From a virus (taxonomy: Duplodnaviria > Caudoviricetes), in the IMG/VR virus record IMGVR_UViG_3300020161_002487, positions 1 through 63,347 of that record: 63,347 nt of DNA. The stretch is one strand, 5' to 3'. The notes below the pieces were generated by a model. It searched no databases. It saw only the letters and a program-made list of their open reading frames with translations, and was not told the origin of the DNA. Below, one piece after another: positions 3,298 to 30,322 of this stretch. The position numbers were made by a program, and so were the translations under genes. Within the stretch, counting starts at the first letter, position 1; each line of letters starts with the position of its first letter.

Positions 3298-3951
3298 ATG
3301 ACTTTTCAAAGTCCAAGAATTTACACGTATAAAATTACTTTTGAAGAAGTTCCTTATTATTACTATGGAGTACACAAGGAAAAAAGATTTGACGAAGACT
3401 ATTGGGGTTCACCGAAGACAAATAAATGGTGTTGGAAACTTTATACACCAAAGAAACAAATATTAGAAATATTTGACTATACTGATGAAGGTTGGATACA
3501 AGCACAGGAAATTGAGAAAAGATTGATACAACCAATCTTTAATAATGATAAGTGCTGCCTGAATGAAAGTTGTGGAGGAAAAATATCACTTAAAGTATTG
3601 AGGGAAAATGGAAGAATAACTGGAAAAATCACTGGGAAAGTAAATGGAAAACTAACATATAATAAAAAAATTGGGGTTCATGGGAGATCAAGGGAAAAAA
3701 TGGTTGACGATGCTATAAAGGCTGGAAAAAGAACATATGAACTTGGGGTTGGAATTTTTAGTAGATCTAATGAAAAATGGAGTGAAGACTCGATAAAAGG
3801 AGGAAAAATAGGAGGAAAAAAAGGCGGAAAATCAGTAAACCTTCAAAAATGGCAATGCACTAGAACGGGATATATTTCTTCTCCAGCAGGACTTTCTAAT
3901 TATCAAAGAGCAAAGGGAATTGACACATCAAATAGAATAAGAATTAAATAG
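3298..3951 (+). CDS. Free-standing GIY-YIG-like (Seg-type) homing endonuclease
   Basis: IYTYKITF...YYYYGVH...YWGS, conserved E and N; Gly/Lys-rich repeats in C-terminal half. Confidence 0.7.
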   Translation: MTFQSPRIYTYKITFEEVPYYYYGVHKEKRFDEDYWGSPKTNKWCWKLYTPKKQILEIFDYTDEGWIQAQEIEKRLIQPIFNNDKCCLNESCGGKISLKVLRENGRITGKITGKVNGKLTYNKKIGVHGRSREKMVDDAIKAGKRTYELGVGIFSRSNEKWSEDSIKGGKIGGKKGGKSVNLQKWQCTRTGYISSPAGLSNYQRAKGIDTSNRIRIK

Positions 3952-5986: not shown

Positions 5987-6056
5987 GATTAAGGTAAGGA
6001 AAGTAAACGGAGCATGGGAACCAATATAAATTGGAGATACCGCACCGACCTTAATC
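5987..6056 (+). ncRNA. Structured RNA candidate between tRNAs
   Basis: 9-bp closing stem GATTAAGGT/ACCTTAATC, inner CGGAGC/GCACCG and CCAAT/ATTGG helices, purine-rich bulges. Confidence 0.45.
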
Positions 6057-6060
6057 TTAA

Positions 6061-6177
6061 TGGGGCATAGTTCAGTTGGTAGAACGAGCGACTGTGGTAA
6101 GAATGGTTTTTAATTTTGGTTCGATTCCTTAACTTATCTTAATCGCTATGTCGTAGGTTCGAGTCCTACTGCCCCAG
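6061..6177 (+). tRNA. tRNA-Asn(GUU) interrupted in the anticodon by a 44-nt insert (6096-6139)
   Basis: TGGGGCA/TGCCCCA acceptor, perfect D and T arms, AGCGA/TCGCT anticodon stem; removing 44 nt restores CT-GTT-AA and a 73-nt tRNA. Confidence 0.85.
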
Positions 6178-6317
6178 TTGGTAGTCGTTAGGCAGATAGC
6201 CTAGAAAGATGCCATCGGAGATTCACCTCCTTCGTTAGGATACTTCGGTTAGTTGGTGATAGGCTTTTCAGTCCGAAAACTGAAAGTAGTAAAAGATTCT
6301 AAAGTCTTTTACTTTTT

Positions 6318-6600
6318 GTCGGTATGGTGGAATGGTAGACACACCAGACTTATAAAATTGAGCCTCATTTGGGAAACCTTATGAGTGTAATTCCTCAAAT
6401 TCGGGGAAACCTTTAAAATGGCAATCCCGAGCCAAGCTAGAGAAATCTTGAAGGTGTAACGACTAGACGGGGAACACCTAAGCCCAAAGGTATGGTGAAG
6501 GGATAGTCTAGACCACAAACTAAAAAAAGGTAGCGAAAGCTATAGTGGTAAGAAAATCTGTTGGGCATTGCCCGTGGGAGTTCGAGTCTCCCTACCGACA
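6318..6600 (+). tRNA. tRNA-Leu(UAA), exons 6318-6351 and 6553-6600
   Basis: GTCGGTA/TACCGAC acceptor, long variable arm, spliced loop CT-T^AA-AA. Confidence 0.93.
6352..6552 (+). mobile_element. Group I intron in tRNA-Leu(UAA) anticodon, cyanobacterial trnL type
   Basis: U^AA insertion site; AATTGAGCC, CAAATTCGGGGAAAC, GGCAATCCCGAGCCAAG, GAAGGTGTAACGACT, GATAGTCTA core; terminal G. Confidence 0.93.
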
Positions 6601-6648
6601 CTCTAACTGGTAAACATGCATAAATATTTATACATTAAGTTTATCGGT

Positions 6649-7365
6649 ATGGATCATTCATATACTCTGGAAGAGTTCAAAATTGCAGTAGAAACCAGTT
6701 TTTCTATATCACAATCTTTAACAAAATTGGGATTGTCCCCAAGGGGGGGAAATTATAGGGTATTTAAAAAATTTCAAAAACTTTATGATATAGATACTTC
6801 CCATTTTACTGGTCAAGGTCATAGAAAAGGAAAAAGTAATACTTCTCTATTAAAACCTTTGAGTGAAATTTTAATAATGGGATCCGAATATAGTTCTAAT
6901 AAGTTGAGAAAAAGATTAATAGAAGAAGGATTAAAGGAACATAAATGTGAATCTTGTGGTTTAAATGAATGGTTAGGAGATAAAATACCTTTAGAATTGG
7001 ATCATATCGATGGGGATCATTATAATAATCAAATTAATAATTTGAGGATATTATGTCCAAATTGTCATGCTAAAACGCCAACTTATCGAGGTAAAAATAA
7101 AAAAAATAAAAATTCACAAGCAATTAAAAATAAAAATCAAATAAACATAACAAAAAAAATATATAATTGTTCTTTTTGTGGAATTGAATTGAAAGGAAAA
7201 TGTAAAACTGGATTGTGTAATGTTTGCTATTCAAAATCTCAGAGAAAAGTCGAAAGACCACCAAAAGAAAAATTATTAATTGAAATCCAACAAACTTCTT
7301 ATGTTGCGGTTGGTAAAAAATATAATGTTAGTGACAATGCCATTCGCAAGTGGTTAAAATCTTAA
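6649..7365 (+). CDS. HNH endonuclease downstream of tRNA-Leu
   Basis: CESC...LELDHIDGDHYNN...NLRILCPNCH, second Zn finger, C-terminal HTH; start ATG 6649 preferred because CATAAATA lies at 6619. Confidence 0.88.
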   Translation: MDHSYTLEEFKIAVETSFSISQSLTKLGLSPRGGNYRVFKKFQKLYDIDTSHFTGQGHRKGKSNTSLLKPLSEILIMGSEYSSNKLRKRLIEEGLKEHKCESCGLNEWLGDKIPLELDHIDGDHYNNQINNLRILCPNCHAKTPTYRGKNKKNKNSQAIKNKNQINITKKIYNCSFCGIELKGKCKTGLCNVCYSKSQRKVERPPKEKLLIEIQQTSYVAVGKKYNVSDNAIRKWLKS

Positions 7366-7447: not shown

Positions 7448-7885
7448 ATGGAAATCTTATTTAAACTTTTAAGTGATACTCAATCTTCTTTATTTGTTTT
7501 ATTTCAAAAAACTTGGGTATATCATTGGAACGTAGTTGGATCTGATTTTCATCAACTTCATAATATGTTTGGTGATCAATATGAAACAATGTTCGAAGAA
7601 ATAGACAGAATATCTGAGCACATGAGATACTTAGGGATGAGACCCCTATCTTCATTGGCTCGAATGATTGAAGTTTCAGGTATATCTGAGGCATCAAGTG
7701 GAATCTCAGCAAATGAAATGGTAGCACAATTAATGAACGATAATAAAGCATTAATTGAAATGTTAAAGGAAATATCAAAAGAAGCAGAAAGTCAAAACTC
7801 AATGGCTACTGCTAATTTGGTTCAAGATCTTATGGAAACTCACGGTAAATTTGAGTGGATGTTGAGATCTTTCTTATCTCTTTGA
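7448..7885 (+). CDS. dps: Dps / ferritin-like DNA protection protein
   Basis: HWNVVGSDFHQLH and DRISEH ferroxidase motifs. Confidence 0.9.
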   Translation: MEILFKLLSDTQSSLFVLFQKTWVYHWNVVGSDFHQLHNMFGDQYETMFEEIDRISEHMRYLGMRPLSSLARMIEVSGISEASSGISANEMVAQLMNDNKALIEMLKEISKEAESQNSMATANLVQDLMETHGKFEWMLRSFLSL

Positions 7886-27761: not shown

Positions 27762-27789
27762 CATCAACAAATCAGGAACCCCTGACGTT

Positions 27790-27905
27790 GTTCTTGTCCG
27801 ACCGAGACTAATGGGCAAGTAAAATCCGTCTCTCATGCCTACACTGGAGGGTGGTGTAGGATATACTGTAACTGTTCAGTTCCCCCTGAATTCTTATTTA
27901 CCCTT
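27790..27905 (+). ncRNA. Structured psbA leader, probably PhotoRC-II motif
   Basis: GAGAC/GTCTC and CCTACACT-GGAGG-GTGGTGTAGG helices upstream of phage psbA; family assignment from recall. Confidence 0.6.
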
Positions 27906-27915
27906 TAACGAAAAA

Positions 27916-30322
<2,407 letters not shown>

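What the first reader, a model, noticed from the sequence alone, without database searches (positions are those of the whole stretch)
6061..6177. tRNA-Asn with a 44-nt tRNA-minihelix-like insert inside the anticodon: candidate new tRNA intron type
Seen: an otherwise perfect tRNA-Asn is split at GU^U by 6096-6139. The insert can fold as GGTAAG/CTTATC (6 bp), an 8-nt AATGGTTT bulge with a D-loop-like GG, TTAA/TTAA (4 bp), a TTTT bulge, and GG/CC closing a canonical T loop TTCGATT, with one unpaired 3' base. That totals 12 bp plus a discriminator, the geometry of a tRNA acceptor/T arm. It is far too short for a group I or II intron and shows no obvious bulge-helix-bulge. Established: RNase P and RNase Z recognise the acceptor/T-arm domain; P leaves 3'-OH upstream and Z leaves 5'-phosphate downstream; T4-type RNA ligases join such ends in anticodon loops. 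Inference: host processing enzymes could excise the insert precisely and a ligase could restore GUU. Alternatively the unspliced RNA is a decoy or shield against anticodon nucleases. Nested tRNA-like introns have been noted in some large phage genomes, but I know no mechanism for them.
Basis: partly seen in the sequence, partly recalled or inferred. Interest (0 to 1): 0.85.

Follow-up and report, generated by a model that had tools for sequence, protein, structure and literature searches.

The report
Mini-tRNA-shaped intron in phage tRNA-Asn
A cyanophage asparagine tRNA gene is split inside its anticodon by a 44-base insert shaped like the top half of a tRNA; it belongs to a little-known family of inserts that cells probably cut out with ordinary tRNA-trimming enzymes and reseal, a splicing route nobody has demonstrated.

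Summary
Window 6061-6177 is a real tRNA-Asn(GUU) gene with a clean 44-nt insert (6096-6139) between U35 and U36. The 4 closest orthologues found lack it, and an independent lake metagenome carries it.

The insert is not a one-off. It belongs to a family of 44-49-nt inserts at the same site in unrelated tRNA-Asn genes. The family folds as a 7-bp acceptor-like helix plus a T arm and shows strong covariation. A model built without the window still finds the insert at 44.5 bits. The window's copy is the shortest and weakest member (9 of 12 pairs).

This scan has found the same kind of insert many times on other DNA. In print I found only the 'enigmatic' Lak-phage tRNA introns (Devoto 2019).

What I did not find among earlier notes: the same inserts sit in chromosomal tRNA-Asn genes of three Chloroflexota MAGs. 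None of their 124 uninterrupted tRNA genes is Asn, so the insert must be removed there. All three carriers encode a divergent Rnl1-like RNA ligase. None encodes an archaeal-type splicing endonuclease.

Excision by RNase P and RNase Z followed by ligation is the best-fitting mechanism. It is unproven: no RNA data exist, no ligase lies in this 30% genome fragment, and some family members have boundaries that do not fit.

The parts
6061..6095 (+). Exon 1 of tRNA-Asn(GUU): acceptor 5' strand, D arm, anticodon stem 5' strand, and loop bases C32 U33 G34 U35
   Evidence: Sequence. Rfam tRNA 56.9 bits over 6061-6177. 93% identical to the uninterrupted S-CREM1 tRNA-Asn, with compensatory stem changes.
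6096..6139 (+). 44-nt mini-tRNA-shaped insert (candidate intron) between U35 and U36
   Evidence: Absent from 4 of 4 orthologues. Leave-one-out model R2 scores 6092-6142 at 44.5 bits, E about 1e-11; the next hit in the window scores 15 bits. The only copy in the window.
6096..6102 (+). Acceptor-like 5' strand. It pairs with 6132-6138: 6 standard pairs, then A6102-A6132 unpaired.
   Evidence: Family alignment columns 5-11 with 46-53. This helix is 91.4% paired across 10 sequences, and 5 of its 7 pairs show changes on both sides.
6103..6117 (+). Connector containing the conserved GG (6105-6106). It stands where the D and anticodon arms would be.
   Evidence: The G at alignment column 15 is nearly invariant. 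AATGGTTT is shared with L220 and L229. That this GG mimics the D loop is inference.
6116..6132 (+). T-arm-like hairpin with loop TTCGATT (6120-6126). G6118-C6128 and G6119-C6127 pair. In the family register there are two U-U mismatches and one U-A.
   Evidence: The GG/CC pairs and the TTCRANT loop are invariant in 10 of 10 sequences. The window has 3 of 5 stem pairs.
6139..6139 (+). Discriminator-like unpaired T, followed directly by exon 2 (TAA, not CCA)
   Evidence: A 12-nt 3' strand plus one unpaired base occurs in 9 of the 10 aligned members. The base is T in 7 and C in 3.
6140..6177 (+). Exon 2 of tRNA-Asn: U36 A37 A38, anticodon stem 3' strand, variable loop, T arm, acceptor 3' strand, and discriminator G. 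No encoded CCA.
   Evidence: 0 of 10 tRNA genes in the window are followed by CCA.

Best explanation
The 44 nt are a mobile, ORF-less intron that mimics the top half of a tRNA: an acceptor-like helix, a T arm, and a GG-containing connector. It is the smallest and weakest-pairing member I saw of a family inserted between U35 and U36 of tRNA-Asn(GUU) genes in phages and in some bacteria.

Most likely route, in steps:
1. The pre-tRNA folds so that the insert presents a 12-position acceptor/T stack.
2. RNase P cuts 5' of G6096, leaving exon 1 with a 3'-OH.
3. RNase Z cuts 3' of T6139, leaving exon 2 with a 5'-phosphate.
4. The two halves stay paired through the tRNA body, and an ATP-dependent Rnl1/Rnl2-type RNA ligase seals the anticodon loop to CUGUUAA.

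Shown here: family membership, covarying structure, fixed insertion site, presence/absence polymorphism, and that some carriers have no other tRNA-Asn gene.

Inferred: which enzymes act, the end chemistry, and whether this particular weak copy is still spliced.
For: Gene and insert:
- The tRNA gene is real and the insertion is clean.
- 4 of 4 orthologues are uninterrupted: S-CREM1, L121, L122, L123. L123 differs from the window's exons only by a compensatory 31-39 pair.
- The insert is present in an independent study's contig.

Family:
- Architecture scans found the same design at CTGT|..|TAA in unrelated tRNA-Asn bodies.
- On 10 aligned members, 90.0% of 120 pair cells are standard pairs, against 73.2 +/- 2.5 in shuffles. 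8 of 12 pairs show changes on both sides. 0 of 500 shuffles reach the covariation score. Slid controls give 45-62%.
- The leave-one-out model scores the window's insert at 44.5 bits.
- In-silico excision gives tRNA-Asn(gtt) in 12 of 12 genes. 0 of 12 are called Asn unspliced.

Boundaries:
- In the 10 aligned members the helix starts at the first insert base. 9 of 10 have a 12-nt 3' strand plus one unpaired base before TAA.
- The 3 members with a C discriminator have unambiguous boundaries.
- 0 of 10 tRNA genes in the window encode CCA, so this phage's tRNAs already depend on endonucleolytic 3' trimming (plus established knowledge of RNase Z).

Splicing must occur somewhere:
- Chromosomal contigs of three Chloroflexota MAGs carry such inserts. 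Their neighbours include glyA, rsmF and pspC.
- 0 of 124 uninterrupted tRNAs in those MAGs is Asn.
- DNA searches found no second full tRNA-Asn gene in them.

Enzymes:
- EndA-type endonuclease was found in 0 of 28 genomes of that order.
- A divergent ligase with a KLDGT motif resembles Rnl1 (PF09511) clusters by Atlas features at 0.97. It is present in 3 of 3 carriers, 6 of 28 in the order, and 5 of 401 in a phylum sample.
- The one complete phage genome with the 46-nt family member encodes Rnl1 (100.9 bits) and Rnl2 (104.4 bits).
Against: - No RNA data. No listed sequencing run is on record as RNA.
- No Rnl1, Rnl2 or RtcB match in the 63-kb window, although it is only about 30% of the genome.
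- The window's copy pairs worst: 9 of 12 positions against 10-12 in the others. It has two U-U mismatches in the T stem and 30% GC. Alone it folds no better than shuffles.
- Boundaries do not fit the rule in every Asn insert seen. L211 has a 5-nt leader and a 1-nt trailer. L244 has one extra 3' base. L227, L246 and L275 need a bulged base. L235, L245 and L214 were not fitted. The Lak-like class has a 5' leader of 20 nt or more. I aligned only the members whose helix visibly began at the first base, so '10 of 10' is partly selection.
- The ligase link is not independent of kinship. The ligase also occurs in G029 and G033, whose Asn exons are contiguous, and a 32%-identical homologue occurs in G067, which has an intact Asn gene.
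- S-CREM1 has an Rnl2-type ligase but no insert.
- The only strong RNA ligase in G007 and G030 is RtcB, whose end chemistry does not match RNase P/Z products.
- The MAGs are incomplete. Each lacks one or two other tRNA types.
Confidence: 0.5

Rival explanations
1. The family is a real intron, but this 44-nt copy is a decaying or recently crippled one. The phage's tRNA-Asn gene is then effectively dead and tolerated because the host supplies tRNA-Asn.
For: It is the shortest member, with the lowest GC and the fewest pairs (9 of 12), and has two U-U mismatches in the T stem. Alone it folds no better than shuffles. No ligase lies in the window. No nuclease gene lies directly beside it, unlike L208, where a weak-HNH ORF lies 34 nt away.
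Against: The exons are intact and score 56.9 bits. The window's 31-39 pair is A-U where all 4 orthologues have G-C, a change on both sides that keeps the pair. The same insert is present in a second study's contig. All 7 of that contig's differences that the output listed lie outside 6061-6177, but only 7 of its 14 differences were listed. The 12-position register, G+1/C pair, T loop and discriminator are all kept.
Confidence: 0.25
2. The insert is spliced, but not by RNase P and RNase Z. An unidentified endonuclease recognises the mini-tRNA and leaves a cyclic phosphate and a 5'-OH, and RtcB joins the halves.
For: RtcB is the only strong RNA ligase in carriers G007 and G030 (588.7 and 590.7 bits) and is present in 22 of 28 genomes of the order. 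Several family members have leaders or extra bases that simple RNase P/Z cuts would not remove.
Against: No EndA-type endonuclease was found in 0 of 28 genomes. The two predicted cut sites lie directly opposite each other, not in a bulge-helix-bulge. No RtcB lies in the window, and RtcB was not found in carrier G035. RtcB is too widespread to be informative. The tRNA-top-half shape has no obvious purpose in this scheme.
Confidence: 0.15
3. The RNA is not spliced. Either the unspliced tRNA-like molecule or the released mini-tRNA is the functional product, for example a decoy for anticodon nucleases or for tRNA-binding defence proteins.
For: The anticodon is physically interrupted. The mini-tRNA structure is conserved in its own right. 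Earlier notes of this scan describe non-decoding tRNA-shaped phage RNAs.
Against: Excision restores a perfect tRNA-Asn in 12 of 12 genes. Very different tRNA-Asn bodies all stay intact. In three bacterial MAGs the interrupted gene is the only tRNA-Asn found, which a non-decoding RNA cannot explain.
Confidence: 0.07
4. Assembly or sequencing artefact, or a chance insertion with no structure.
For: It was seen in a metagenome-assembled fragment. The insert alone has an unremarkable folding energy.
Against: Contigs from two studies hold it. The leave-one-out model gives E about 1e-11. 0 of 2,000,000 shuffles show both features.
Confidence: 0.01

Closest known systems
'Enigmatic' introns in Lak megaphage tRNAs (Devoto et al. 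2019, Nat Microbiol, PMC6784885). [quoted passage not shown] 4 legend and the methods. Supplementary Table 6 was not seen because supplements are closed.
   Same: A phage tRNA gene is interrupted in the anticodon loop by a short, ORF-less insert that itself looks like a tRNA. Alleles exist with and without it, and no mechanism is known. The Lak-B1 locus I fetched ends its insert with a T arm plus an acceptor-like 3' strand next to exon 2. It matches window 6116-6170 at 79%.
   Different: The paper gives no family, structure test, site rule or mechanism. The Lak-B insert is about 145 nt with a long 5' leader. The window's insert is 44 nt and consists of the mini-tRNA alone. Cyanophage and bacterial chromosomal cases are not in that paper.
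Group I introns in bacterial and phage tRNA anticodon loops. One example is the neighbouring tRNA-Leu(UAA) intron at about 6351-6561 in this window.
   Same: Inserted in the anticodon loop, mobile, sporadic among relatives, often near homing-endonuclease genes. This phage is intron-rich, with 3 Rfam group I hits.
   Different: Group I introns are ribozymes of 200 nt or more with a P1-P9 core. The 44-mer gives no Rfam Intron_gpI hit and cannot self-splice by that chemistry.
Archaeal and eukaryal bulge-helix-bulge tRNA introns, cut by EndA/Sen and joined by RtcB or Trl1
   Same: A short, protein-dependent tRNA intron in the anticodon loop.
   Different: The position is 35/36, not 37/38. The predicted cut sites face each other and are not staggered in two 3-nt bulges. 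EndA (PF01974) was found in 0 of 28 genomes of the carrier order, while the control rang in 4 archaea.
tRNA-like structures released by RNase P and RNase Z, such as MALAT1 mascRNA and mitochondrial 'tRNA punctuation' (recalled, not read here)
   Same: An acceptor/T-arm mimic directs the tRNA end-maturation enzymes to cut a longer transcript at both of its ends.
   Different: There the flanks are not rejoined. Here the flanks would have to be ligated to make a working anticodon loop.
Phage T4 anticodon-loop repair by Pnkp plus Rnl1 after PrrC cleavage (recalled, not read here)
   Same: An Rnl1-type ligase seals a 3'-OH/5'-phosphate break in an anticodon loop of an otherwise folded tRNA. That is the ligation step needed here.
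   Different: That is repair of damage at 33/34 in tRNA-Lys, not removal of an encoded insert. No Rnl1 lies in this window.

Membership tests
Mini-tRNA-shaped inserts at U35|U36 of tRNA-Asn(GUU) (undescribed; defined) | Insertion exactly between CTGT and TAA of the anticodon loop of an otherwise intact tRNA-Asn | tested here: met
Mini-tRNA-shaped inserts at U35|U36 of tRNA-Asn(GUU) | Acceptor-like helix of 7 positions that starts at the first insert base | tested here: met
   6 standard pairs plus one A-A mismatch. The family helix is 91.4% paired.
Mini-tRNA-shaped inserts at U35|U36 of tRNA-Asn(GUU) | T arm: 5-position stem closing a TTCRANT loop | tested here: inconclusive
   The loop and the two G-C pairs are present. 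Two U-U mismatches leave 3 of 5 pairs. An alternative TTAA/TTAA slip is possible.
Mini-tRNA-shaped inserts at U35|U36 of tRNA-Asn(GUU) | 12-nt continuous 3' strand plus one unpaired base before exon 2 | tested here: met
   6127-6138 plus T6139. The same holds in 9 of 10 aligned members.
Mini-tRNA-shaped inserts at U35|U36 of tRNA-Asn(GUU) | Recognised by a covariance model built without it | tested here: met
   R2 gives 44.5 bits, E about 1e-11. The next hit scores 15 bits. Part of the score comes from the CTGT/TAA flanks and the T loop.
Mini-tRNA-shaped inserts at U35|U36 of tRNA-Asn(GUU) | Removed from the RNA (a true intron) | not testable with these tools
   No RNA holder is listed. The only support is indirect: the sole-Asn-gene result in three MAGs.
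Group I intron (RF00028) | Conserved catalytic core and a size of about 200 nt or more | tested here: not met
   44 nt. No hit at E <= 10. The neighbouring tRNA-Leu intron scores 62.5 bits.
Small self-cleaving ribozymes in Rfam (hammerhead, twister, pistol, hatchet and others) | Match to any Rfam ribozyme model | tested here: not met
   Only 3 chance-level hits, to snoR30, MIR2655 and HYMAI, at E 5-8.
Bulge-helix-bulge intron | Two 3-nt bulges separated by a 4-bp helix, with an EndA-type endonuclease present | tested here: not met
   In the MFE fold the boundaries lie opposite each other at a 1x1 internal loop. EndA was found in 0 of 28 genomes of the carrier order. EndA was not searched for in the window itself.
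Lak-phage 'enigmatic' tRNA introns (Devoto 2019) | Short tRNA-like insert in the anticodon loop of a phage tRNA, polymorphic among relatives | tested here: met
   The published description is too brief to define more features.
tRNA (RF00005), the outer gene | Cloverleaf above the gathering score | tested here: met
   56.9 bits against a gathering score of 29.

The most novel reading that the evidence does not exclude
Bacteria and their phages have a third tRNA-splicing pathway that needs no dedicated splicing endonuclease. A mobile intron mimics the top half of a tRNA, so RNase P and RNase Z excise it precisely. An Rnl1-type ligase, possibly with its neighbouring phosphoesterase, then reseals the anticodon loop. 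In some Chloroflexota this pathway is essential, because the only tRNA-Asn gene carries the intron.
Probability: 0.4. Interest if true: 0.9.

Novelty: new variant of a known kind. Interest (0 to 1): 0.72.

Why it matters
Known tRNA introns are either self-splicing ribozymes (group I, rarely group II) or bulge-helix-bulge introns cut by a dedicated endonuclease in archaea and eukaryotes. A 44-49-nt intron in bacteria and phages that borrows the universal tRNA end-trimming enzymes would be a new splicing logic. It would also give Rnl1-type 'repair' ligases a housekeeping job.

The family offers directly testable substrates of about 120 nt. The chromosomal Chloroflexota cases show that the phenomenon is not confined to phages and is probably obligatory there.

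In practice, these genes are missed by default tRNA finders. Phage and MAG tRNA inventories therefore under-count tRNA-Asn.

Tried and rejected
- A loose exon-anchored pattern gave 116 loci. The best non-self match agreed with the window's exon flanks at only 22 of 55 compared bases, so I read them all as chance.
- Four stricter patterns tied to this phage's exon sequence found nothing, nor did the first metagenome scan. Only a pattern based on architecture worked.
- 80 relatives anchored on the lysozyme gene held no interrupted Asn like this one. The R2 hit in L124 is part of an ordinary tRNA.
- ARAGORN in intron mode mostly fused neighbouring tRNAs and mis-called the window gene as Lys, so I did not use it.
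- Rfam's gathering-level scan did not report the interrupted genes of L208 or L213. The RF00005 genome search likewise did not list the interrupted gene of G007. Long tRNA hits are therefore not a reliable screen.
- tblastn with the window's HNH (6616-7365) and GIY-YIG (3298-3951) proteins found no relatives beside other family members. I found no nuclease that travels with this copy.
- Ligase searches in the window found nothing.
- No RNA holder is listed for the window.
- The G007 ligase-like protein has no sequence match in the PDB, no NCBIfam match, and no blastp similarity to the phage G002 ligases.
- Of the 27 metagenome loci, I read 9 as regular Asn members (8 distinct sequences), 2 as irregular (L211, L235) and 6 as the Lak-like class. 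I left 10 unanalysed: several are adjacent tRNA genes, and L214 is an Asn gene with a 62-nt insert.
- Left out of alignment A2: the duplicates L206-L208 and L216; L211, L235, L214, L244, L245; and the Lak-like class.
Supplementary files of papers are closed, so Devoto's Table S6, which lists the Lak introns, was not seen.
- Literature searches turned up no description of tRNA-shaped introns beyond Devoto 2019 and its preprint. I saw search listings only, except for the Devoto passages.
Full report
**Where the window comes from.** The window is an IMG/VR virus record of 63,347 bases, estimated to be about 30% complete. Its genes include the RNR small subunit, PstS, ferritin and a tail lysozyme. 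It also has a PhotoRC-II RNA, and its DNA resembles Synechococcus and Prochlorococcus myoviruses. This points to a T4-like cyanophage. Public runs that hold it are labelled freshwater and lake metagenomes.

**The observation.** Positions 6061-6177 read as a tRNA-Asn(GUU) gene.
- Its loop, CTGT...TAA, is interrupted by 44 nt at 6096-6139.
- Rfam's tRNA model spans the whole 117 nt at 56.9 bits. Default ARAGORN misses the gene.
- After in-silico removal of the insert, ARAGORN calls tRNA-Asn(gtt).
- The boundary is ambiguous by one base because T6095 equals T6139.

**Is it more than chance?**
- Thermodynamics alone does not single the insert out. It folds at -5.9 kcal/mol with z = -0.53.
- Rfam sees no tRNA or ribozyme in the insert alone.
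- The combination of features is another matter. A terminal helix in that exact register together with a GGTTCRANTCC T-arm motif occurred in 0 of 2,000,000 shuffles.

**It is a clean, lineage-specific insertion.**
- Synechococcus phage S-CREM1 has the same tRNA-Asn without the insert. The exons are 93% identical, the stem changes are compensatory, and a 3' flank is conserved.
- Three IMG/VR contigs with matching exon 2 are also uninterrupted. So 4 of 4 orthologues lack the insert.
- L123 differs from the window's exons only in the 31-39 pair, G-C there and A-U here, which is a change on both sides.
- Contigs of two studies cover the insert. Run X1 is identical and is probably the source sample. 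Run X2 has a 667-nt contig with 14 substitutions and 14 gap letters over 5987-6383.
- The 7 X2 substitutions that the output listed all lie outside 6061-6177. The output lists only part of the differences.
- A third run (X6) holds a relative's uninterrupted tRNA-Asn.

**It belongs to a family.**
- Patterns tied to this phage's exons found nothing.
- A pattern describing only the architecture did find relatives. It specified CTGT, a gap, a T-arm motif, 10-13 nt, TAA, and the outer T arm at the right distance.
- It returned 5 IMG/VR loci, 27 metagenome loci and 8 loci in species-representative genomes (read).
- Many are tRNA-Asn genes with quite different bodies. All are split at the same CTGT|TAA site, by inserts of 46-49 nt.
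- These inserts share the window's T loop, its 5' GG..AAG/AA.GGTT motif and its 3' geometry.
- I aligned the window with nine distinct members whose helix visibly started at the first base (A2).

**The structure covaries.**
- For a 7-position acceptor-like helix plus a 5-position T stem, 90.0% of 120 cells are standard pairs. Shuffles give 73.2 +/- 2.5, and 0 of 500 reach the observed value.
- 8 of 12 pairs show changes on both sides.
- The covariation score is 0.552 against 0.216 in shuffles (0 of 500 reach it).
- Sliding the partners by 1-3 columns drops pairing to 45-62%.
- I derived the structure from these same sequences, which flatters the slid control.

**Leave-one-out test.**
- A covariance model built from the nine others scores window 6092-6142 at 44.5 bits, E about 1e-11 (rough).
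- The next hit in the window is an ordinary T arm at 15 bits.

**The window's copy is the poorest member.** It is 44 nt with 30% GC and 9 of 12 pairs, against 10-12 in the others. Its T stem has two U-U mismatches.

**Boundaries.**
- In the ten aligned members the helix begins at the first insert base, right after U35.
- Nine of ten have a 12-nt 3' strand followed by one unpaired base (T in 7, C in 3) and then exon 2. That is tRNA acceptor-plus-T geometry with a discriminator.
- The three members with C have unambiguous boundaries.
- Cuts 5' of +1 (RNase P) and 3' of the discriminator (RNase Z) would leave exactly CUGU-OH and pUAA.
- None of the ten tRNA genes in the window encodes CCA. Their normal maturation therefore already needs endonucleolytic 3' trimming. 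This is inference from established RNase Z biology, which I recalled and did not read here.
- The regularity is partly a product of my selection. L211 has a 5-nt leader and a 1-nt trailer. L244 has an extra 3' base. L227, L246 and L275 need a bulged base. L235, L245 and L214 were not fitted.
- The Lak-like class puts 20-100 nt before its mini-tRNA.

**Bacterial chromosomes carry it too.**
- Two hits of the genome scan lie on contigs with housekeeping genes. L246 has glyA, a GNAT gene, a HAD gene and a 7TM-HD gene. L244 has rsmF and pspC.
- Both belong to Chloroflexota MAGs of one order.
- Model R2 found a third carrier in that order, G030.
- So at least 3 of 28 genomes of the order carry an interrupted tRNA-Asn. 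Two share a 48-nt insert. The third has a different 47-nt insert in the orthologous gene.
- I listed every uninterrupted tRNA in the three MAGs: 41, 41 and 42. 0 of 124 is tRNA-Asn.
- The other gaps differ between MAGs: Cys in one, Asp and Ile in the other two.
- DNA searches with the interrupted gene found no second full copy. There is only an orphan 3' half in G032.
- Relatives G013, G029 and G033 have contiguous Asn exons.
- Unless three MAGs all happen to miss a second gene, these bacteria must remove the insert to decode Asn.
- Among the earlier notes I was shown, none mentions chromosomal carriers. One of them (e1-5336573) says the family occurs only in phage-like contigs.

**Which enzymes?**
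- An EndA-type splicing endonuclease was found in 0 of 28 genomes of the order, while the control rang in four archaea.
- RtcB is common, in 22 of 28 genomes including the three carriers. It joins 3'-phosphate or cyclic-phosphate ends, not the ends that RNase P and RNase Z leave.
- The three carriers share a 395-451-aa frame with a KLDGT motif, placed directly after a calcineurin-like phosphoesterase gene.
- Pfam gives this protein only 19 bits to RNA_ligase. Protein-language features place it with T4 Rnl1-family clusters at 0.97, with all ten best hits in one family.
- With this protein as the query, 6 of 28 genomes of the order have it: the 3 carriers plus G008, G029 and G033. In an even sample of the phylum, 5 of 401 have it.
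- The intron is thus found only inside the ligase-bearing subset. That subset is probably one clade.
- Two of its members have intact Asn genes. G067, which has a distant homologue, also has an intact Asn gene. This is a lead, not a demonstration.

**Phage ligases.**
- The one complete genome with the 46-nt family member (G002, 172 kb) encodes both Rnl1 and Rnl2.
- S-CREM1, which lacks the insert, has an Rnl2-type ligase.
- A complete 249-kb relative, G004, has neither.
- The window itself has none in its 63 kb.

**Mobility.**
- The insert shows presence/absence among close orthologues, in phages and in bacteria alike.
- The same site is used in unrelated tRNA-Asn bodies.
- Two different inserts occupy orthologous bacterial genes.
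- All this points to a mobile element that targets the invariant anticodon-loop DNA of tRNA-Asn.
- In L208 a 109-aa ORF with a weak HNH signature (E = 0.005) lies 34 nt from the gene.
- In the window the nearest nucleases are the HNH gene at 6616-7365, beyond the intron-bearing tRNA-Leu, and a GIY-YIG gene at 3298-3951. Neither has relatives next to other family members.

**Verdict.**
- It is a member of a covarying family of mini-tRNA introns. That family is barely noted in print (Devoto 2019, passages read). No other paper surfaced in seven literature searches.
- This scan has reported it repeatedly on other DNA.
- The RNase P / RNase Z / ligase route remains the best-fitting mechanism and gains indirect support here. 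It is still inference.
- This copy is the weakest of its family and may or may not still splice.

Noticed in passing
window 6318-6600: tRNA-Leu(UAA) interrupted at the cyanobacterial U^AA site by a group I intron of about 210 nt (Rfam 62.5 bits over 6342-6533). An HNH-like ORF (6616-7365) lies just downstream. Other samples hold an intron-less allele: contigs join 6342 to 6573 (table 5c).
   Followed up: partly
window 27783-30226: A PhotoRC-II RNA (27783-27874) is followed by two Rfam group I introns (29434-29668 at 89.5 bits; 29984-30226 at 85 bits), presumably in psbA. The phage is unusually intron-rich.
   Followed up: no
L120 (Prevotella phage Lak-B1) 149-360: The baboon Lak intron was published as lying in tRNA-Tyr(GTA). 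It can equally be read as tRNA-Asn(GUU) split at the same U35|U36 site. The body has a 5-nt variable loop (bacterial tRNA-Tyr has a long arm; recalled). Its D and T arms closely match the window's tRNA-Asn. The insert's mini-tRNA ends one base before TAA. L205, L209, L223, L226, L230 and L233 share this class.
   Followed up: partly
L246 (G007:C46:495-622), L275 (G030:C155), L244 (G032:C97): Chromosomal tRNA-Asn genes of three Chloroflexota MAGs carry 47-48-nt mini-tRNA inserts. They are the only tRNA-Asn genes found in those MAGs.
   Followed up: yes
L278 8-2403 (G007:C19): A two-gene cassette: a calcineurin-like metallophosphoesterase followed, with overlapping stop and start, by a divergent Rnl1-like ligase (KLDGT motif). 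It may be an RNA heal-and-seal system. It is rare in the phylum, in 5 of 401 sampled genomes.
   Followed up: partly
G008, G009, G013, G019, G021, G022, G029, G031, G034: RtcB lies in open frames of 875 to about 1,030 aa. The Pfam match is split into positions 1-50 and 46-426, about 1.5 kb apart, which suggests a large intein-like insertion in RtcB of these Chloroflexota.
   Followed up: no
L343 about 1500-1545 (G032:C105): An orphan 3' half of tRNA-Asn, 97% identical to exon 2 of the interrupted gene, with no 5' half. It looks like an attachment-site duplication left by an integrated element.
   Followed up: no
window 6178-6193; L001 1540-1556: The 16 nt after tRNA-Asn (GTTGGTA.TCGT.A) are conserved between the window and S-CREM1. 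In S-CREM1 an abiF-type small RNA is annotated about 30 nt downstream. 7 of 10 tRNA genes in the window are followed by TT.
   Followed up: no
L124 about 7740-7800: In the closest lysozyme relative, an ORF ending in an HNH-like CxxC...H motif runs up to the start of a tRNA gene. Nuclease genes seem to sit next to tRNA genes often in these phages.
   Followed up: no
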